DNA from: a virus
Length of the DNA stretch: 64,000 nt
Virus record (IMG/VR): IMGVR_UViG_3300048838_001273
Coordinates: 1-64,000 of that record
Direction: 5' to 3' (one strand)
Positions 55,296-61,245 of the stretch are shown piece after piece (the stretch's first letter is position 1; every line of letters starts with the position of its first letter). The position numbers and the translations under genes were made by a program. The notes under the pieces are model-generated. The model worked only from the letters and a program-made list of their open reading frames with translations. It made no database searches and was not told where the DNA came from.

Positions 55296-56393
55296 TTAAA
55301 GACTAAATCTTTCTTGTTTTCTTGCTTTCTTCCTGAGTTCATTTACCTCACGAAGTGCATTTGGGTCGAACCTGTCACGTTTAACAACACTTACTAAGTG
55401 GTTAAATTCGTTTTCAGTAATTACCTGACCAACGTACCCTTCTGTTTTAAGAACAAAAGACTTTGGTGCAGTTCTTGAAGTTGACTGTCCTTCAGTATCT
55501 GCAGTTGCATTGAATGTAAGTTCAAGAAGTTCCTGAATCTTTTCATGCACGCTTGCGGTCATGGTCTGCTTTACTTTCTTCAAAGATTTTTCAAGCAAAT
55601 CAATGATATTATCCTGATGACTTTTCTTCATTTCATTGTATGTTTCGGTGAAAACATTCATTGAAGTCCTATTCTTTAACTCGCTGATAATTGCAAGTGC
55701 ACCGTAACAATCACGAATCATCAAATCCCAAACCTGTTCAGCGTATGTGAATGAAGGAAATTTATCGACTGCGACAATTTCACCATCAATCAACACAACA
55801 ATACCGATAAGATTTTTTGGACGTTCGAAGTGTGCAATGAACTGTTCGAGTTTCTTGTCATACTTATTAAAGTAAACGTCCAAGTAATTACCGGAATTAC
55901 ACTGAGTATCCTGTCCCAACTTCTGAATAGCAGGATAGATGTTACCGTGACCTGATGTTTGACCAACGGCATCGAATAACATTTCACGCATGGTTACTGG
56001 AATCATACGGAATTCCTGAGTACCACGGAAGTGTCCAGTCTGTCCACCCTGTACACAACCAGCATCATGATATGTAGTTTGTGCTTTAGGTTCAACATAA
56101 CCTGCCTTCACCATACCGTGGTTCTGAGCACTCTGTTTTGTCATAACAGCCATCTGAGCAGGAAGAATAACTTCCTTATTCTCTTTATTGGTGAAACTGA
56201 TTTGACCATATGAACTGTTACCAGCAGTCAATGAAGTCAAAGGATTAGCAAAACGCTCGTCCAATGAGAATTCTTTGTCAGTTGTTAAACACACGATTTG
56301 CATGTTCATAATTGACTGAACGATAATGTTACCTTCACTATCCTTGACAGGACGGCAACCTTTAAGTAATTCTGTGAAATCTCTTGTATTCAT
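55296..56393 (-). CDS. ARPP-1/DUF6569-like protein
   Basis: 'N....VILP...AQN......CVQ' and 'F......GIVVLIDGEIVAVDKF.S......W..MI...Y' match the ARPP pattern as recalled; needs HMM confirmation. Confidence 0.6.
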   Translation of the reverse strand: MNTRDFTELLKGCRPVKDSEGNIIVQSIMNMQIVCLTTDKEFSLDERFANPLTSLTAGNSSYGQISFTNKENKEVILPAQMAVMTKQSAQNHGMVKAGYVEPKAQTTYHDAGCVQGGQTGHFRGTQEFRMIPVTMREMLFDAVGQTSGHGNIYPAIQKLGQDTQCNSGNYLDVYFNKYDKKLEQFIAHFERPKNLIGIVVLIDGEIVAVDKFPSFTYAEQVWDLMIRDCYGALAIISELKNRTSMNVFTETYNEMKKSHQDNIIDLLEKSLKKVKQTMTASVHEKIQELLELTFNATADTEGQSTSRTAPKSFVLKTEGYVGQVITENEFNHLVSVVKRDRFDPNALREVNELRKKARKQERFSL

Positions 56394-56404: not shown

Positions 56405-58039
56405 TTAAGCGTTAACACTAATTTTATTTGACCTCTTAACAGGTGCAGCTTCTAAAGCACGAACCTGATTTTCAAGCCACCTTGGGGTATCGATTTCCAA
56501 TAACCTTGCGTTAATCTGTGGCTGAAGTGCAACTGGATTATTGATTGCCATTGTGACAACACCCGAACCCAATTTACGAACATTAGCACCCATTTCAGCA
56601 CTGGTGATTGGTGAAATCTGGAAAATCGGAATGCTCCTACCAGATTCTGCTTGCCAGATTGAAATAACTTCGTTGGTTAGACCATCGTAAGCATTTTCAT
56701 AACCATCAGTTAAGATGAAAATCGCATCATAAGGACGTGCAGTATTTTCTGATTTAAGCAATTCAATGAATGAACTTGCCAAGTCAGTAATTTCGTCACG
56801 AGTCTTAACAAATGTTGCAACATCTGCTGACCTACCCAATACCTTTGCAGTGAAATCAGCAATTGCCCTTGGAGTGTTCTTTGACTCAGCCTTATGACCA
56901 GTCATTGAAGCACTGTCATCGACAACAATACCAATACTCTGGTAGAAGAAACCTGCAATCTTTTTCTTTTCAGCAAGTTTACTAATTGCAACATTCAATT
57001 CAGGTGTGAAACCATTTTCATAACCTGTCTTGTAAAGTGCCATGAAGTCAGTTGCTTTTTCAAGTTCAACATGCTTTTCAACACCCAACTTCGCAGTACT
57101 TTTGGTCTGACGAACCTGCTGGTTAACCGAAGTTACCTTAACATTCTTACGAACCAAAGCCTTTGTTGCTTCTCTCTGAACAGCAGTTGCCCACATACTG
57201 TGGTACTGTGGGTGAGTTACAGAAGAAATTAAACCGAGCAATACTTCTTCCGGTACATTCTGAACATTGGTGATGTCAGTTTTTGCCTTCTGATATTCAT
57301 TTAAAATACTGAATTCACTGTAGTCAATACCAGTATCTCTTTTGAAGATGAATAACAATAACTTAAATGCACGAGTTGTGTCACCGTTAAAGTATTTCAA
57401 AAGCAAATCATTTGCAATACCCATTTCCTTTTCAGTTCCAATAAGAAGGTTGTTACCATAAGTAACGTACTTCTGTGCAATTGAAAGCAGAATTGAAGTT
57501 CTTTTTGTTCCATAGGTGTGCTTCAAAATATTTGCAAGTTTGTTACGGTACTTCAATGAATAGAATTCAAGGTTTGACTGACCCCAAATGAAGCCGAGTA
57601 CAATTTTCCTTGACCTTTCGTTGTTAATCCTTGATTTTTTCAAATCAATGAAAAGACGTAACGCATAGGTAATACCATTATCAGAACCTGCAAGGTTATT
57701 CAACGCACTAAGAACTGCCTTATCAGATAATCCATTATCATACCAGTCAATTGGATTAACTATATTACAAGCACCACCCCTATAGGTTTCTTTGAATTCG
57801 TTAAGCAATACCTCAGACACAAATCTTCCGGTAGCACCTTTTTGGCTTGCAATAATTAATGGAAGTTCCTTTGAAAGTTTATACATACTCCTAATCTGAG
57901 TCTGTAATGCCTTCATCTGTTCATCCTTTTTGTGGTAGTAAGTTGCTGAACTTTTGCTACCTGATGCAATTGTTAAACCTTCAATTAATGACTGCTTAAC
58001 GCTTGTAAGCATCTTCTGTGTTAATACCAATTTTTCCAT
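56405..58039 (-). CDS. Helical + vWA protein, divergent Ro60/TROVE-like candidate
   Basis: 544 aa; long helical N-terminus then vWA MIDAS 'VVDDSASM' and 'FILTDGYEN'; directly downstream of tRNA-like RNAs. Confidence 0.6.
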   Translation of the reverse strand: MEKLVLTQKMLTSVKQSLIEGLTIASGSKSSATYYHKKDEQMKALQTQIRSMYKLSKELPLIIASQKGATGRFVSEVLLNEFKETYRGGACNIVNPIDWYDNGLSDKAVLSALNNLAGSDNGITYALRLFIDLKKSRINNERSRKIVLGFIWGQSNLEFYSLKYRNKLANILKHTYGTKRTSILLSIAQKYVTYGNNLLIGTEKEMGIANDLLLKYFNGDTTRAFKLLLFIFKRDTGIDYSEFSILNEYQKAKTDITNVQNVPEEVLLGLISSVTHPQYHSMWATAVQREATKALVRKNVKVTSVNQQVRQTKSTAKLGVEKHVELEKATDFMALYKTGYENGFTPELNVAISKLAEKKKIAGFFYQSIGIVVDDSASMTGHKAESKNTPRAIADFTAKVLGRSADVATFVKTRDEITDLASSFIELLKSENTARPYDAIFILTDGYENAYDGLTNEVISIWQAESGRSIPIFQISPITSAEMGANVRKLGSGVVTMAINNPVALQPQINARLLEIDTPRWLENQVRALEAAPVKRSNKISVNA

Positions 58040-58068
58040 AATCTATATGTGTTTAAAATTTCGTTCTG

Positions 58069-58099
58069 CAATAATAACAATTATAATTCAATTTACAAA
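58069..58099 (-). promoter_or_regulatory. Bacteroidetes-type promoter (near consensus) for the vWA/ARPP genes
   Basis: TTTG-N19-TATTATTG. Confidence 0.5.
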
Positions 58100-58106
58100 A
58101 AAAATC

Positions 58107-58160
58107 AAAAAAAAAATGGGTGAGATGAAACATTTCTGCTCCAAGTCCCCACCCATTTTT
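58107..58160 (-). terminator. Terminator ending the ncRNA operon
   Basis: AAAAATGGGTG...CACCCATTTTT stem running into a U10 tract on the minus strand. Confidence 0.6.
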
Positions 58161-58193
58161 CATTTTGGAATACTCTTCTTCTAAAAAAAAAGA

Positions 58194-58284
58194 GAAGAAG
58201 TTCGGTTGTATTTTGGTAAGTTTGTCCCGCCTCTCATGAGCGGGATTACATTTTTCAATTTACTGTAAACACAGCCAGTTCTTC
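58194..58284 (-). ncRNA. Y-RNA-like RNA unit A
   Basis: 5' GAAGAA pairs with 3' UUCUUC; GUGUUUACAGUAA motif opposite CUUAC..AAAUAC; inner UCCCGC/GCGGGA hairpin. Confidence 0.65.
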
Positions 58285-58494
58285 CACCAAATTTCTTGTT
58301 TTTGAAAAACTCAGTACTTCTACTTAGAAAACCATTCTTAACCTCTCGTGCGTTTAAAACGCAAATTCAAATGTTAGGTGGTATGCCCCTTTTTTGTTAA
58401 AAAATTCTGATACCAACAGCCAAAAACTTTAAGCAGTGGGGTTTGCTTAATATTAAATAAATCTTATTTGCTAACCGTCACCACTTAATAACTT

Positions 58495-58634
58495 AGGGAA
58501 CATTTTAAAAGTATTTGTTGTTTTTAATGCAAGTTTAACCGACTTGTGACTTAACCGCTTGTCTAATTTTCAATTTTGGCTGAAAATGAAGGATTCGAAC
58601 CTCCGTATTACTGTAAACACTTTTCGTTTTCCCT
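58495..58634 (-). ncRNA. Y-RNA-like RNA unit B: circularly permuted tRNA mimic
   Basis: AGGGAA/UUCCCU ends; motif; T arm GGAGG-UUCGAAU-CCUUC; closed acceptor AUUUUCA-GCCAAAAU-UGAAAAU; D arm GAC-AAGCGGUUAA-GUC; anticodon arm CAAGU-CGGUUAA-ACUUG. Confidence 0.8.
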
Positions 58635-58700
58635 TTGTACTTTAAAGAACGTTACCCCGAAGTTTGTGTTGCCACAGGGACAACGGGGAATTATAATTTT

Positions 58701-58776
58701 AGAAGAAATTCGTTAGTCTTGTGTTGTAAGTGTCTGATTTACCGTCAAATTTACTGTAAAAACTATCAGTTCTTCT
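58701..58776 (-). ncRNA. Y-RNA-like RNA unit C
   Basis: AGAAGAA/UUCUUCU ends; GUUUUUACAGUAA motif opposite CUUAC; inner UUUGA-CGGUAAA-UCAGA hairpin. Confidence 0.7.
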
Positions 58777-58781
58777 TTTTG

Positions 58782-58854
58782 TAGCGGGAGAGGGATTCGA
58801 ACCCCCGACCTCTTGGTTATGAGCCAAGCGAGATACCACTTCTACCATCCCGCA
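58782..58854 (-). tRNA. tRNA-Met(CAT), initiator-like, CCA not encoded
   Basis: Acceptor UGCGGGA/UCCCGCU (1:72 mismatch), anticodon arm CUUGG-CUCAUAA-CCAAG, T arm GGGGG-UUCGAAU-CCCUC. Confidence 0.85.
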
Positions 58855-58892
58855 ATATAAAGGGTTTTTGTGAAAAACCCTTAAAAACTTTG

Positions 58893-59028
58893 TGGGGAGA
58901 ACAGGACTCGAACCTGTAATCTATTGATTTCAACTCAATTGCTTTACCTTTACTGAAAACACTACGAGTTCTCTCTGTGAAGAGAGCAGTGAGATAGTAT
59001 TTCTTGTTTTTGTTTTTGCTATCTCCCC
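58893..59028 (-). ncRNA. tRNA-like RNA unit D with ~65-nt insertion in the D-loop
   Basis: Acceptor GGGGAGA/UCUCCCC; T arm ACAGG-UUCGAGU-CCUGU; anticodon arm AUUGA-GUUGAAA-UCAAU; insertion carries GUGUUUUCAGUAAA. Confidence 0.75.
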
Positions 59029-59074
59029 ATGTAAAAAAATTCATTTCTTAAAAGAACGTTGTCCAAAGACTCTG

Positions 59075-59106
59075 CAAATATAAAACACCTTTTTTTAATA
59101 TGCAAG
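59075..59106 (-). promoter_or_regulatory. Bacteroidetes-type promoter of the RNA operon
   Basis: CTTG-N20-TATATTTG. Confidence 0.75.
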
Positions 59107-59199
59107 TGTTTTTGAAAAAAAATAAAAATATTTTTATAGACCTCTGGAAAAATAAATACTTGATGTTTTACAAAAAGTTACATTTTTTTATAAAAATTT

Positions 59200-61245
59200 T
59201 CACTCTTTTTTTATAACATTCTGTCTTTTACGTAATTGCGCCAACTTTTCTTTTATAAATTTTTCATTATCTTGTGGTGCATCCGGGTCAATTAACCTGT
59301 CATTAACATCTATTTCAGTATTAATATTTTTTTGAACTGGTGGTAAAATTTCTTTTCTTTCTTGAATTTCGGGTAGTGTTTCAACTGATTCTTGCACAAT
59401 ATTAGGTACGTCTTTTAACTCGACTTCCTTTTCAATGACATTAGTATAAAAGGTTTCACCAGTCCAACTATCCATTATAAAATCAGTATCTGTTGTGTTT
59501 ATTCCCTCATTTACTCCCTCACTTACTCCCTCATTTACACCATCACTTACACCATCAGGTTCGTCAGTAGCTTCTTCATCTATTTCTAATATACTTCCAG
59601 TACTCGGCACTACAATATCTTCTACAGTCTCAGGCACATTATTTCCAGTTTTACCGGACATCAAATCTTCTAAACTATCTTTATACGATTGAATTTTACC
59701 GGGTTTTACAGCATCATTTGGAGTATCATTTACGGCATCATCTTTCAGTTTTCCCTCAATTATATTTCCATAATACTCACTAACAGGTATATGAATAGCA
59801 GTACCTGTCTTATTTGTCTTATCTTCCAATTTGTCAATATCTGGAGTATCGTGGTGCTTGATGTTTTTACTCATCTTGCTATACTTATACCTGTCATCTT
59901 CGATTTTGATTTCCATTGTATCATTATTGAAGATACAGTTCGTAAAAGTCTGACCGTCTTGTGCAAACCTTGCTTTAATAATTCTGATATTAGCAAGATG
60001 TGCTTCTTTTTGTTCAGGAGTTTTTGCCACACTCATGAAAAAGTGTGCTTTTTGTACTCTCTTTATATTACCACCAGTTTGATGAACCTCAACGAATTCA
60101 GAATCGAAACCACTACGGTTTGACTGAATTGCAGTCCATGCAGGAATATTCAAATCTCCGGCAAGTGCTTCGAATGATTTAACAATTACAAGTTCAGCTT
60201 CATTTCTATCTGCAGTTTTTTTATGAGATTCCAAACAATCCAGATAATCCAAAACAATTTCATCAAAAACATATCCATATTTTTTCTGATGCCTTGTAAT
60301 CCAGTTACGAATATCCATCATAGTGGTGTTCTCCTGACTAAATTTCTTAATCATGAGTTTACCTCTACCCCTTTTTCTTAATTCATCGGCTTTTTCATGT
60401 GAAAGTTTAGTTACTCTCTCATTTTCATCATCTTCATTTAACTGGCTCAACTTAGATTTTGTCCAAATTGTAAAGTGCTTTCTCTGAATCTGTTCTACAG
60501 TATCTTCGAAGACGATTTGAAGTACGTTTTTACCAACTTCAAGTCCGGTATTTGCTATTTTTGTTAGTAATGTTGTTTTACCAACACCCGATGGTGTTAA
60601 TATTACACCAATTTCTCCCTTACCTAACCCACCACCAGTAAGTACGTCAATAACTTCAACACCAGTGGGTATTGTTTCTCTGAATTCTTTTCTTAATGCC
60701 TTTTCAATGTTATCTGTAACTTCAGTACCATAATCTTCTTCTTCACCAATATGTGAGATTTTCAAGAATTTTTCTTCAATATAACCAAGAGTGTGTTTAT
60801 GTTTTATTTCACCACTTTTGGTTTTAGCTAAAATATATTCACCTATCTTCCTGTATTCCTGTTGTTTAATGAAATTATTGGTTGCCTTTTGTACAACAAT
60901 ACCGTCATAAAGCATTTCTTTATTTAAAACCCTTTCATTCCATAATTCAACACGTTTAATTACAGCAAATAAGGATTCTTCCTCGATTATGTTGTTCGGA
61001 GTTTTATAAGAATTAATTGCAAGATGTATACTTTTATTTTGAAGATTTGGTACTTTTTCATACTCTTTATAATACTCCAAAATGATGAGAAACAGCCTTT
61101 TTAAATAAGGGTCATCAAAGTATTCTACTTCTAAATTTGGTATTGTTTTTTCTGCAAACTCCGGTTCTACAAGCAATTGCCACATTAGGCTTTGTTGAAA
61201 ATCAGGACCGAGATATGCAGAAAATGTATTTGTACTATCACTCAT
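59200..61245 (-). CDS. dnaB: Replicative DnaB/T4 gp41-like helicase with acidic C-terminal extension
   Basis: 'IPTG', 'GGGL', Walker A 'TPSGVGKT', 'VLDYLD', 'WTAIQSNR', 'KARF'. Confidence 0.9.
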   Translation of the reverse strand: MSDSTNTFSAYLGPDFQQSLMWQLLVEPEFAEKTIPNLEVEYFDDPYLKRLFLIILEYYKEYEKVPNLQNKSIHLAINSYKTPNNIIEEESLFAVIKRVELWNERVLNKEMLYDGIVVQKATNNFIKQQEYRKIGEYILAKTKSGEIKHKHTLGYIEEKFLKISHIGEEEDYGTEVTDNIEKALRKEFRETIPTGVEVIDVLTGGGLGKGEIGVILTPSGVGKTTLLTKIANTGLEVGKNVLQIVFEDTVEQIQRKHFTIWTKSKLSQLNEDDENERVTKLSHEKADELRKRGRGKLMIKKFSQENTTMMDIRNWITRHQKKYGYVFDEIVLDYLDCLESHKKTADRNEAELVIVKSFEALAGDLNIPAWTAIQSNRSGFDSEFVEVHQTGGNIKRVQKAHFFMSVAKTPEQKEAHLANIRIIKARFAQDGQTFTNCIFNNDTMEIKIEDDRYKYSKMSKNIKHHDTPDIDKLEDKTNKTGTAIHIPVSEYYGNIIEGKLKDDAVNDTPNDAVKPGKIQSYKDSLEDLMSGKTGNNVPETVEDIVVPSTGSILEIDEEATDEPDGVSDGVNEGVSEGVNEGINTTDTDFIMDSWTGETFYTNVIEKEVELKDVPNIVQESVETLPEIQERKEILPPVQKNINTEIDVNDRLIDPDAPQDNEKFIKEKLAQLRKRQNVIKKE

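What the first reader, a model, noticed from the sequence alone, without database searches (positions are those of the whole stretch)
58194..59028. Four RNAs share a GUGUUUACAGUAA internal-loop stem but carry different cargo
The plus-strand motif TTACTG(T/A)AA(A)CAC recurs at 58259-58272, 58608-58620, 58750-58763 and 58949-58962. In each RNA it is preceded by a purine-rich helix strand (GAAGAAC, AGGGAA, AGAAGAA, AGAGAG). Flanking helices differ in sequence yet still pair (GAAGAA/UUCUUC, AGGGAA/UUCCCU, AAAAGUG/UACUUUU, UAGUUUU/AAGACUA, UAGUG/UACUA). This covariation-like pattern around an invariant loop is what a protein-binding handle looks like.
Basis: partly seen in the sequence, partly recalled or inferred. 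Interest (0 to 1): 0.85.

Follow-up and report, generated by a model that had tools for sequence, protein, structure and literature searches.

The report
Shared handle of phage Y-like RNAs
Four small RNAs of a giant phage share one conserved two-strand stem ("handle") that carries tRNA look-alikes in different arrangements, and they lie directly upstream of a hidden relative of the RNA-binding ring protein Ro60, so this is most likely an undescribed branch of the known Ro60/Y-RNA particles.

Summary
GUKUUUWCAGUAA occurs four times, on the minus strand only, within 58193-59028, and nowhere else in the 78.9-kb record.

The motif is not an internal loop. GUKUUU is the 5' strand of a helix (P2) with a conserved G-U wobble, and WCAGUAA is the junction strand behind it. 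A purine-rich helix (P1) lies outside P2. P1 and P2 form by pairing a 5' module (M5) with a 3' module (M3). RNAalifold recovers both helices in all four RNA classes, with compensatory changes among about 100 homologues.

The handle carries four different bodies:
- a complete circularly permuted tRNA (unit 2);
- a normal-order tRNA with the handle grafted into its D loop (unit 4);
- a bare anticodon-stem-loop mimic (unit 3);
- a plain hairpin (unit 1).

The gene directly downstream (544 aa) has no Pfam hit but folds as full-length Ro60 (Z 18.2). An ARPP-1-like gene always follows it. The same trio, with the handle as GGRACUR..GUCAWUACAG, recurs in distant phages, Planctomycetota, Myxococcota and Bacteroidota.

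Best reading: the handle is the binding stem for the Ro60-like ring. This is a new variant of the Ro60/Y-RNA system; binding is inferred, not shown. This scan has already noted the same module in at least seven other genomes.

The parts
58893..59028 (-). Unit 4: normal-order tRNA-like RNA with the handle inserted as a closed hairpin (M3-loop-M5) between position 11 and the D-loop GG. Acceptor strands 59022-59028 and 58894-58900; anticodon arm 58923-58939 (loop GUUGAAA); T arm 58901-58917.
   Evidence: RNAalifold on 30 homologues predicts the acceptor stem (8 bp, covarying), P2, P1, the anticodon arm and the T arm. Rfam tRNA gives a partial hit of 29.4 bits at 58901-58954.
58950..58976 (-). Unit 4 handle, 5' module M5: P1 strand AGAGAG 58971-58976, P2 strand UAGUGUUU 58957-58964, junction UCAGUAA 58950-58956.
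58981..59002 (-). Unit 4 handle, 3' module M3: P2 strand AAAUACUA 58995-59002 and P1 strand CUCUCU 58981-58986. It lies upstream of M5 here and is joined to it by the loop UCAC.
58781..58854 (-). Ordinary tRNA-Met (CAU) without a handle. Unit 3 starts 4 nt after its discriminator base.
   Evidence: ARAGORN; Rfam tRNA 52.3 bits
58701..58776 (-). Unit 3: 76-nt RNA consisting of the handle plus one anticodon-stem-loop mimic (stem 58744-58748 with 58732-58736, loop CGGUAAA 58737-58743). M5 58751-58776; M3 58701-58720.
   Evidence: On 28 homologues, P1+P2+hairpin is 96% paired against 58% or less when slid. Pair 17-74 is GC in 15 and AU in 12 sequences. A rival D-like helix is weaker.
58495..58634 (-). 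Unit 2: circularly permuted tRNA-like RNA closed by the handle. In order: M5 58608-58633; T arm 58588-58604; acceptor 3' strand 58581-58587; G-CCA-AAAU loop 58573-58580; acceptor 5' strand 58566-58572; D arm 58548-58563; anticodon arm 58530-58546 (loop CGGUUAA); A/C-rich linker; M3 58495-58516.
   Evidence: RNAalifold on 37 homologues predicts P1, P2, the T arm, a closed 8-bp acceptor stem, the D arm and the anticodon arm. 21 of 36 pairs are compensatory.
58193..58285 (-). Unit 1: handle (M5 58260-58285, M3 58193-58212) carrying a GC hairpin (58225-58245) whose sequence and presence vary among relatives.
   Evidence: RNAalifold on 12 homologues keeps only P1 and P2 as the consensus.
56405..58039 (-). 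544-aa Ro60-like protein: a helical-repeat ring plus a vWA domain with the MIDAS motif D374-x-S376-x-S378. Proposed binder of the handle.
   Evidence: No Pfam or PDB sequence hit. AF2 model pLDDT 92.7. The top 11 Foldseek hits are all Ro60/Rsr. VIA-align Z 18.2, rmsd 4.1, 408 residues aligned over residues 15-513. MIDAS motif.
55296..56393 (-). 365-aa ARPP-1-like protein, always the next gene, predicted to dock on the MIDAS face of the Ro60-like protein.
   Evidence: Pfam PF20208, E 1.6e-15. It follows the Ro60-like gene in 60 of 60 close loci and 57 of 60 distant loci. Complex score 0.66 against a best control of 0.00.
58107..58154 (-). GC-rich hairpin followed by a run of U, ending the RNA cluster. 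Terminator-like by eye.
   Evidence: Sequence. The consensus terminator scan did not call it because the loop is too long.

Best explanation
**What the motif is.** It is the conserved core of a bipartite RNA handle.
- The 5' module is M5: RGRRRAAC, 4-5 variable nt, GUKUUU, WCAGUAA.
- The 3' module is M3: AAAUAC or AARAC, 4-10 nt, YYYCYY.
- M5 pairs with M3 to give an outer helix P1 (6-7 bp), an asymmetric internal loop, and an inner helix P2 (7-10 bp) with a conserved G-U wobble.
- P2 ends in the single-stranded WCAGUAA.

**What it most likely does.** It is most likely the docking stem for the Ro60-like ring protein encoded directly downstream. That would make these RNAs a diverged class of Y RNAs.

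**What the variable parts are.** They are tRNA-shaped or anticodon-arm-shaped modules that the particle displays. The ARPP-1-like enzyme is predicted to sit on the ring's vWA/MIDAS face.

**Shown and inferred.**
- Shown here: the helices, their covariation, the tRNA-like bodies, the Ro60 fold and the strict synteny across phyla.
- Inferred: that the ring binds the handle, and that the displayed tRNA mimics act as bait or adaptors for tRNA-binding factors and not as decoding tRNAs. Candidates for such factors are host anticodon nucleases and repair or modification enzymes.
For: **Handle structure.**
- P1 and P2 are predicted independently in all four classes and in a cross-phylum set.
- They pass slide and shuffle controls in unit-3 homologues.
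- The G-U wobble in P2 is invariant: GU in 37 of 37 unit-2 homologues, UG in 29 of 30 unit-4 homologues, GU in 11 of 12 unit-1 homologues.
- One handle joins tRNA bodies at the variable loop (unit 2) or the D loop (unit 4). In relatives it joins them at the acceptor end. The handle, not the tRNA part, is therefore the constant element.

**Protein.**
- The AF2 model (pLDDT 92.7) matches only Ro60/Rsr over its full length: Foldseek E 2e-7, VIA Z 18.2, rmsd 4.1, 408 residues aligned. The next tier matches the vWA domain alone.

**Linkage.**
- The motif lies upstream of this gene in 75 of 76 loci and only there in complete genomes.
- Distant homologues (25-31% identity) in viral contigs and in Planctomycetota and Kapaibacteria genomes carry RNAs of the same architecture, GGRACUR..GUCAWUACAG, upstream of the gene.
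- The order 5' strand - T arm - closed acceptor stem - D arm - 3' strand is that of YrlA Y RNAs (PMC4201824). Phage Ro60 proteins with upstream Y-like RNAs are known (PMC12135203).

**Against a decoding role.**
- The anticodon column is the most variable column of the alignment (1.94 bits; 13 anticodons in 37 sequences).
- U33 is present in only 24 of 37 sequences.
- Complete relatives carry 36-65 ordinary tRNAs elsewhere in the genome.

**ARPP docking.** Score 0.66 against a best control of 0.00. That mark was reached by 58 of 80 solved complexes and 2 of 110 mismatched pairs. The three runs agree in at least 85% of contacts, and the partner pLDDT is 85. The interface includes S376-S378 and D445-G453.
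Against: - No binding experiment exists, and none of these tools models RNA-protein contacts.
- The handle lacks the Ro60-contact motifs of known Y RNAs: GNCGAAN0-1G in YrlA and GGUCCGA in animals. CGAA occurs in only about half of the copies, and there it lies inside covarying P2 pairs.
- The protein misses the Pfam TROVE model, so the relationship rests on fold alone.
- Unit 2 keeps all four arms, and N-CCA follows the acceptor strand in 26 of 37 homologues. In some relatives a complete tRNA with CCA sits between M5 and M3. A precursor or 'stored tRNA' role is therefore not excluded.
- Transcription is not shown. Contigs from RNA libraries cover the units in genomic order, but they could derive from DNA.
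Confidence: 0.65

Rival explanations
1. The handle is a maturation signal. It would be a leader-trailer helix cut by RNase III, RNase P or RNase Z, or a protein-dependent splice signal comparable to the bulge-helix-bulge of permuted tRNA genes. It would be removed to release real decoding tRNAs. Units 2 and 4 would then be a permuted and an intron-containing tRNA gene.
For: - Unit 2 has all four arms and N-CCA in 26 of 37 homologues.
- Unit 4 has covarying acceptor, anticodon and T arms.
- M3-loop-M5 inside a tRNA, against M5...M3 around one, is the topology expected of an intron and its permuted form.
- A relative has a complete tRNA plus CCA between M5 and M3.
- Every complete relative encodes an RNA ligase: Rnl-type in three and RtcB in the fourth.
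- M. smegmatis YrlA is itself cut by RNase P and receives CCA (PMC4201824).
Against: - Units 1 and 3 contain no tRNA to release.
- Removing the unit-4 insert leaves a D stem of only two pairs.
- Sequence, not only structure, of M5 is conserved across phyla, which a structure-reading nuclease would not require.
- The anticodon is hypervariable, and U33 is missing in 13 of 37 homologues.
- 36-65 ordinary tRNAs lie elsewhere in the genome.
- No tRNA-splicing endonuclease was found in five genomes.
- The handle is not a 3-nt/4-bp/3-nt bulge-helix-bulge.
- This reading does not explain the strict linkage to the Ro60-like gene.
Confidence: 0.17
2. The M3/M5 element is a small self-processing RNA: a ribozyme or mini-intron. 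It would excise itself from unit 4 and circularise the enclosed 'exon' in units 1-3, as in a permuted intron-exon arrangement.
For: - Both topologies occur, closed hairpin and flanking pair.
- A few nucleotides are strongly conserved: AAC, GUKUUU, CAGUAA.
- In unit-4 homologues the M3 strand can also pair with the acceptor 5' strand, like an exon-binding guide: 92% paired against 57% or less when slid.
Against: - No Rfam ribozyme or intron family matches at E up to 10.
- About 45 conserved nucleotides is far below any known self-splicing intron.
- RNA-library contigs show only the colinear form. This evidence is weak.
- This reading does not explain the linkage to the Ro60-like and ARPP genes.
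Confidence: 0.05
3. The repeat acts as DNA. It would be a promoter, an operator or an iteron (the core TTTAC-A-GTAAA is partly palindromic) next to the replication genes.
For: - The core TTTACAGTAAA is an imperfect palindrome in units 1 and 3.
- The cluster abuts a DnaB-like helicase gene.
Against: - All copies lie on one strand, in every relative.
- Distant partner strands change in a compensatory way, which only an RNA helix explains.
- The palindrome is broken in unit 4 and absent from the distant clades, which have UUACAG only.
- Cumulative GC skew shows no turning point here.
Confidence: 0.03

Closest known systems
YrlA-type bacterial and phage Y RNAs with Ro60/Rsr (Chen et al. 2014, PMC4201824; Salmonella, M. 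smegmatis, mycobacteriophages)
   Same: - The RNAs are encoded next to a Ro60-fold gene.
- The 5' and 3' ends pair into a long stem with a conserved 5' strand.
- The internal order is T arm, closed acceptor-like stem, D arm.
- An acceptor loop carrying CCA recalls M. smegmatis YrlA, which is cut by RNase P and receives CCA.
- There are several RNAs per locus.
   Different: - The GNCGAAN0-1G motif is absent; the conserved handle is AAC..GUKUUU-WCAGUAA or GGRACUR..UUACAG.
- No Rfam match other than tRNA.
- The stem leaves the tRNA body at the variable loop, the D loop or the acceptor end, not in place of the anticodon stem, so a full anticodon arm is kept and is hypervariable.
- The protein is undetectable with the TROVE profile.
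- An ARPP-1-like gene is the fixed partner, not rtcB/rtcA.
Thermus phage phiLo Ro60 with Yrl1/Yrl2 (PMC12135203; PDB 9L5Y)
   Same: - A phage-encoded Ro60-fold ring with small RNAs directly upstream of its gene.
- 9L5Y is among the structural matches (Z 14.9).
   Different: - The phiLo RNAs are stem-bulge-stem Y RNAs recognised by a CGAA motif and have no tRNA bodies.
- In phiLo the proposed partner is host PNPase; here an ARPP-like protein is predicted on the MIDAS face.
Circularly permuted tRNA genes of Cyanidioschyzon merolae and some algae and archaea (recalled from knowledge; reviewed in PMC4238349)
   Same: In unit 2 the 3' half precedes the 5' half, a short linker closes the acceptor stem, and the leader pairs with the trailer.
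   Different: - Those genes use a bulge-helix-bulge cut by the tRNA-splicing endonuclease and yield decoding tRNAs with fixed anticodons.
- Here there is no such endonuclease, no bulge-helix-bulge geometry, a sequence-conserved handle shared with non-tRNA cargo, and hypervariable anticodons.
Ordinary tRNA (Rfam RF00005)
   Same: T arm, D arm, anticodon arm and acceptor stem with the usual conserved nucleotides. Distant bacterial versions score 50-60 bits as tRNA.
   Different: - In the window only tRNA-Met is a canonical tRNA.
- The handle-bearing units are permuted, interrupted or reduced, and ARAGORN does not find them.

Membership tests
YrlA / Y RNA (Rfam RF02553, RF00019; Chen et al. 2014) | Encoded adjacent to a Ro60 (TROVE) orthologue | tested here: met
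   The cluster ends 1-150 nt upstream of a gene whose model matches Ro60 over its full length. Linkage holds in 75 of 76 loci. The protein fails the TROVE sequence profile.
YrlA / Y RNA (Rfam RF02553, RF00019; Chen et al. 2014) | 5' and 3' ends pair into a stem carrying the Ro60-contact motif GNCGAAN0-1G (GGUCCGA in animals) | tested here: not met
   The stem is present and covaries. The motif is not conserved: CGAA occurs in about half of the copies and inside covarying pairs. A different conserved 5' strand takes its place.
YrlA / Y RNA (Rfam RF02553, RF00019; Chen et al. 2014) | tRNA-like domain in the order T arm - closed acceptor-like stem - D arm, with the long stem replacing the anticodon stem | tested here: inconclusive
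   The order is met in unit 2, but a separate anticodon arm exists and the stem leaves at the variable-loop position. Units 1 and 3 have no T or D arm, and unit 4 is in normal order.
YrlA / Y RNA (Rfam RF02553, RF00019; Chen et al. 2014) | Match to the family covariance model | tested here: not met
   cmscan of 57900-59300 at E up to 10 lists no Y RNA or YrlA match. None appears in distant loci either.
YrlA / Y RNA (Rfam RF02553, RF00019; Chen et al. 2014) | Bound by Ro60 in vivo or in vitro | not testable with these tools
   Needs EMSA, RIP or cryo-EM.
Ro60 / TROVE protein family (for the 544-aa neighbour) | Ring of helical repeats followed by a vWA domain with MIDAS | tested here: met
   VIA-align Z 18.2, rmsd 4.1, 408 residues aligned, covering residues 15-513, against 2I91_B. 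The nine best chains are all Ro60/Rsr. DxSxS at residues 374-378.
Ro60 / TROVE protein family (for the 544-aa neighbour) | Match to Pfam TROVE (PF05731) | tested here: not met
   No Pfam family at E up to 0.01 for the protein or for ten relatives. No TROVE match in five genomes read in six frames. A profile search of PDB sequences finds no Ro60.
Circularly permuted tRNA genes processed through a bulge-helix-bulge | 3' half upstream of 5' half, with the acceptor stem closed by a linker | tested here: met
   Unit 2 and 36 homologues. The closed acceptor stem has 8 pairs with many compensatory changes.
Circularly permuted tRNA genes processed through a bulge-helix-bulge | Bulge-helix-bulge at the leader-trailer junction and a tRNA-splicing endonuclease | tested here: not met
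   The junction is P1, an asymmetric loop and P2, not 3-nt bulges spaced by 4 bp. PF01974 is absent from five genomes, while the control search finds it in archaea.
Decoding tRNA | Conserved anticodon and U33 among orthologues; free acceptor end | tested here: not met
   13 anticodons in 37 unit-2 homologues. The anticodon column is the most variable column. U33 is present in 24 of 37. The acceptor is closed by a loop.

The most novel reading that the evidence does not exclude
The handle marks a widespread, undescribed ribonucleoprotein machine of bacteria and jumbo phages. A Ro60-like ring would hold an ARPP-type enzyme on its MIDAS face and be loaded with interchangeable RNAs whose fast-evolving anticodon loops act as specificity modules. 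These modules would serve as bait or decoys for anticodon nucleases, or as guides that select particular tRNAs or codon-like targets. This would make it an RNA-programmed player in the tRNA-centred arms race between phages and hosts.
Probability: 0.25. Interest if true: 0.88.

Novelty: new variant of a known kind. Interest (0 to 1): 0.72.

Why it matters
Ro60/Y-RNA particles are conserved from bacteria to humans, yet what the tRNA-like part of bacterial Y RNAs does is still unknown.

This branch offers several new angles:
- The same protein handle is grafted onto tRNA bodies at three different positions, and onto a bare anticodon arm.
- The anticodon is the fastest-changing site, which points directly at the anticodon loop as the working surface.
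- The branch shows that Ro60-fold proteins are much more widespread than the TROVE profile reveals: about 300 clusters at 50% identity, in several phyla and in giant phages.
- It has a fixed, uncharacterised enzyme partner (ARPP-1).
- Unit 2 is a complete circularly permuted tRNA in a bacterial virus. My one full-text search for permuted tRNAs in phages found no such case.

Tried and rejected
**Searches that found nothing or were not decisive**
- Rfam at gathering score and at E up to 10 gives only tRNA in the cluster. The weak sRNA or terminator-like hits are far below their thresholds.
- blastn against 50,697 phage records matches only the tRNA-Met.
- PHROGs and Pfam do not name the 544-aa protein. 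phmmer and a profile search against PDB sequences find no Ro60.
- The viral scan with P0012 found no locus.
- The ARPP-like model (pLDDT 82) has no significant Foldseek match in the PDB.
- Literature searches for permuted tRNAs in phages, tRNA-like RNAs of jumbo phages, and Ro60 with tRNA arrays or Planctomycetes found no description of this handle. The library is partial.

**RNA evidence that does not settle expression or processing**
- No sequencing run holds more than 14% of the sampled words.
- Contigs of four sediment and lake RNA libraries, laid at 80% likeness, cover relatives' units 1-4 in genomic order. They show no joint at the handle. Being contigs, they show neither transcription nor absence of processing.

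**Checks that came out weak or negative**
- RtcB is present in only one of four complete relatives.
- My script searching for P1/P2 partners in distant loci was too permissive: 52 hits against 35 for shuffled strands. I relied on the alignments and RNAalifold instead.
- The D-stem-like pairing CUGAU/AUCAG in unit 3 is weaker than P2 plus the hairpin: 83% paired, with one pair broken in half of the sequences.
- In-silico removal of the unit-4 insert does not restore a normal D stem.
- The 209 nt between units 2 and 1 fold no better than shuffles (z 0.19).
- The sigma-70 promoter and terminator scan gave nothing above background.

**Tool availability**
Full report
**Setting**

The window is part of a 78.9-kb fragment, about 22% complete, of a giant phage. 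Its relatives are 320-365-kb genomes. All genes read on the minus strand.

The finding lies in a 1.16-kb non-coding gap. On one side is a DnaB-like helicase gene (59200-61245). On the other is a 544-aa gene of no known family (56405-58039).

**Observation**

GTKTTTWCAGTAA occurs exactly four times, on the minus strand, at 58260-58272, 58608-58620, 58751-58763 and 58950-58962. With one mismatch allowed there are 10 matches against 1.4 expected, and no shuffle reaches 10. The whole record holds no further exact copy.

Searching viral contigs with the 544-aa protein gave 72 loci. In 75 of the 76 loci then held, the motif lies upstream of the gene and on its strand, in 1-5 copies. In five complete relatives, exact copies are confined to that one cluster. 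The repeat is real, strand-specific and family-wide.

**Anatomy of the handle**

Lining up about 120 distinct copies shows that the conserved block is longer than the motif: RGRRRAAC, then 4-5 variable bases, then GUKUUU, then WCAGUAA. I call this M5. Each M5 has a partner M3, which reads AAAUAC or AARAC, then 4-10 bases, then a pyrimidine run.
- The purine run of M5 pairs with the pyrimidine run of M3 to form P1.
- The variable bases plus GUKUUU pair with AAAUAC plus its variable bases to form P2.
- WCAGUAA stays single-stranded at the inner end of P2.

RNAalifold, run without any guidance, predicts P1 and P2 in four separate alignments:
- unit-2 homologues: 37 sequences, 21 of 36 pairs compensatory;
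- unit-4 homologues: 30 sequences, 16 of 31 pairs compensatory;
- unit-1 homologues: 12 sequences, with only P1 and P2 kept in the consensus;
- a cross-phylum set: 17 sequences, 18 of 25 pairs compensatory.

For unit-3 homologues I named the structure and counted pairs. 96% of cells are paired, against 58% or less when the partner is slid. No shuffle reaches the observed covariation score, and one P2 pair splits GC 15 to AU 12.

The second G of GUGUUU always pairs with U: 37 of 37, 29 of 30 and 11 of 12 sequences. A conserved wobble of this kind is a usual mark of a protein-recognition site.

**The cargo**

- **Unit 2 (58495-58634)** reads, in order: M5, T arm, acceptor 3' strand, a loop with G-CCA, acceptor 5' strand, UA, D arm, a 5-bp anticodon arm with a 7-nt loop, an A/C-rich linker, M3. 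The closed acceptor stem shows compensatory changes at every position. This is a complete, circularly permuted tRNA opened at the variable-loop position and held shut by the handle.
- **Unit 4 (58893-59028)** is in normal order. Its acceptor strands lie 130 nt apart and covary, and its anticodon and T arms are intact. The handle sits as a closed hairpin (M3, loop, M5) where the 5' half of the D arm should be.
- **Unit 3 (58701-58776)** starts 4 nt after an ordinary tRNA-Met. It is the handle plus one hairpin whose loop CGGUAAA is the tRNA-Tyr anticodon loop with G in place of U33.
- **Unit 1 (58193-58285)** is the handle plus a GC hairpin that varies or is missing in relatives.
- In some relatives and in distant clades the handle flanks a whole tRNA body at its acceptor end.

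The handle is thus the constant element, and tRNA parts are attached to it in at least three topologies.

**These are unlikely to be working tRNAs**

- Among 37 unit-2 homologues the first anticodon position is the most variable column of the alignment (1.94 bits against a mean of 0.64).
- 13 different anticodons occur, and U33 is present in only 24 sequences. N-CCA follows the acceptor strand in 26.
- Near-identical planctomycete versions differ almost only in the loop.
- Complete relatives carry 36-65 ordinary tRNAs in separate arrays elsewhere in the genome.

**The neighbouring protein**

A note from the first-stage reader on this genome suggested that the 544-aa protein is Ro60-like, and I tested that.
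- Sequence methods fail: no Pfam family for it or for ten relatives, no TROVE match in five genomes, and no PDB sequence match even with a profile.
- The family is large: 306 clusters at 50% identity.
- Its alignment shows a DxSxS MIDAS motif.
- The AlphaFold model built on 97 sequences is confident: pLDDT 92.7, pTM 0.91.
- The 11 best Foldseek matches are all Ro60: Xenopus, human, Deinococcus Rsr and Thermus phage phiLo. They align over the full length at E down to 2e-7.
- VIA-align gives Z 18.2, rmsd 4.1 A and 408 aligned residues covering 15-513. The next tier matches only the vWA domain (Z 12 or less).

The protein is therefore a Ro60-fold ring with a vWA domain, hidden from sequence profiles.

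**The ARPP-like partner**

The next gene (365 aa) matches Pfam ARPP-1. That domain is a predicted enzyme of unknown activity, proposed to act on sugar or ribose moieties (PMC9503650). It follows the Ro60-like gene in 60 of 60 close loci and 57 of 60 distant loci.

A complex prediction supports docking, but it does not show it.
- Score 0.66 against a best control of 0.00.
- That mark was reached by 58 of 80 solved complexes and 2 of 110 mismatched pairs.
- The three runs agree in at least 85% of contacts, and the partner pLDDT is 85.
- The contacts lie on the MIDAS face (S376-S378, D445-G453).

**Breadth**

Distant homologues of the protein (25-31% identity) occur in other viral contigs. They also occur in genomes of Planctomycetota, Myxococcota, Bacteroidota and other phyla, often inside tRNA arrays.

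Upstream of many of these genes lie RNAs with the same design: a P1 strand, ACUR, a few bases, a P2 strand, UUACAG, a tRNA-like body, the P2 partner, about 9 bases, and the P1 partner. One of them is again a permuted tRNA with a tetraloop-closed acceptor stem. GUGUUUACAGUAA is the local form of GUCAWUACAG.

**Interpretation**

Taken together, the evidence fits the Ro60/Y-RNA pattern best. The RNAs share a terminal stem with a conserved 5' strand. They carry tRNA mimicry in the order T arm, closed acceptor stem, D arm. They lie directly upstream of a Ro60-fold gene.

Known examples of this pattern are YrlA in Salmonella, M. smegmatis and mycobacteriophages (PMC4201824), Yrl1/2 of phage phiLo (PMC12135203), and the ROT/TROVE proteins with a tRNA-like partner noted in some jumbo phages (PMC7824862).

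Formal membership tests fail, however:
- the GNCGAAN0-1G contact motif is absent;
- there is no Rfam match other than tRNA;
- there is no TROVE profile match;
- the stem leaves the tRNA body at other positions;
- an anticodon arm is retained and is hypervariable;
- the fixed partner is ARPP and not RtcB/RtcA.

I therefore file this as a new variant of a known kind: it works like a Y RNA but is not a YrlA family member.

**Mechanism**

Shown here: the handle helices, the tRNA-like bodies, the Ro60 fold and the trio's linkage.

Inferred:
- The ring binds the handle, mainly through the conserved M5 strand and the wobble pair.
- The ARPP-like protein sits on the vWA domain.
- The displayed tRNA or anticodon-arm mimics recruit or distract tRNA-binding factors.

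The non-U33 GUN loops are those of Tyr, Asn, His and Asp, the set cut by colicin E5-type nucleases (from knowledge). Together with the rapid anticodon turnover, this makes bait or decoy for anticodon nucleases the most attractive specific idea. It is untested.

**Rivals**

- A maturation or splice signal for real tRNAs is the main alternative (confidence 0.17). It fits units 2 and 4 and the presence of RNA ligases in every complete relative. It does not fit units 1 and 3, the cross-phylum sequence conservation, the hypervariable anticodons, or the absence of a splicing endonuclease.
- A self-processing mini-intron (0.05) lacks support. One odd observation remains: in unit-4 homologues the M3 strand can also pair with the acceptor 5' strand (92% paired against 57% or less when slid).
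- A DNA-level site (0.03) is excluded in practice by strand specificity and compensatory changes.

**Expression**

Expression is not established. RNA-library contigs of relatives cover the units colinearly, but they cannot prove transcription or exclude processing.

**Earlier notes of this scan**

Follow-up reports on at least seven other genomes describe the same trio and reach the same reading. I treat them as agreement, not as evidence.

Noticed in passing
window 59048-59057 and 58641-58650 (minus strand): The box GTTCTTTWAA, continuing as AAATA in relatives, occurs only twice in the 64-kb window. The copies lie 19 nt upstream of unit 4 and 7 nt upstream of unit 2. The box is conserved at the same places in relatives. 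It could be a cluster-specific promoter (TAAAAT-like -10 element) or a processing site.
   Followed up: partly
window 58655-58697 (minus strand): Between units 3 and 2 lies a conserved nested hairpin (CCCCG ... GUUGUC-loop-GGCAAC ... CGGGG). It recurs nearly unchanged in many relatives (for example L033, L040, L017) and has no handle.
   Followed up: no
window 58330-58430 (minus strand): A conserved stretch (GGCUGUUGGUAUCAG ... GGGGCAUACCACCUAACAUUUGA) between units 2 and 1 recurs in relatives. Contigs of two RNA libraries cover it at about 95% identity. Its fold energy is no better than that of shuffles.
   Followed up: partly
A2 columns 21-27 with 53-59; window 59019-59025 with 58991-58997: In unit-4 homologues the M3 strand CUAUCUC is complementary to the acceptor 5' strand plus U8-A9-G10 (GAGAUAG), and changes on the two sides match in three sequences. 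92% of cells are paired, against 57% or less when slid. This helix competes with both the acceptor stem and P2, so it may be a conformational switch.
   Followed up: partly
complete relatives G001-G005 (e.g. G002:C1:249000-283000): Each complete relative carries 36-65 ordinary tRNA genes in arrays far from the Ro60-like cluster and on the opposite strand.
   Followed up: partly
L087:2289-2378 and L087:4622-4712: In a Chitinophagales MAG, two matches to the orphan Flavo-1 RNA motif (41.7 and 51 bits) flank the Ro60-like/ARPP-like pair.
   Followed up: no
L082 (JBAZIW010000001.1, 362,763 bp): A contig with the same length as one of the complete phage relatives (G004) is deposited as a scaffold of a 'Candidatus Paceibacterota' MAG. 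This is either a mis-binned phage genome or a hint at the host.
   Followed up: no
G001, G003, G004 (Rnl-type) and G002:C1:348880-349941 (RtcB): Every complete relative encodes at least one RNA ligase, far from the cluster. This fits an RNA-repair capacity in these phages.
   Followed up: partly
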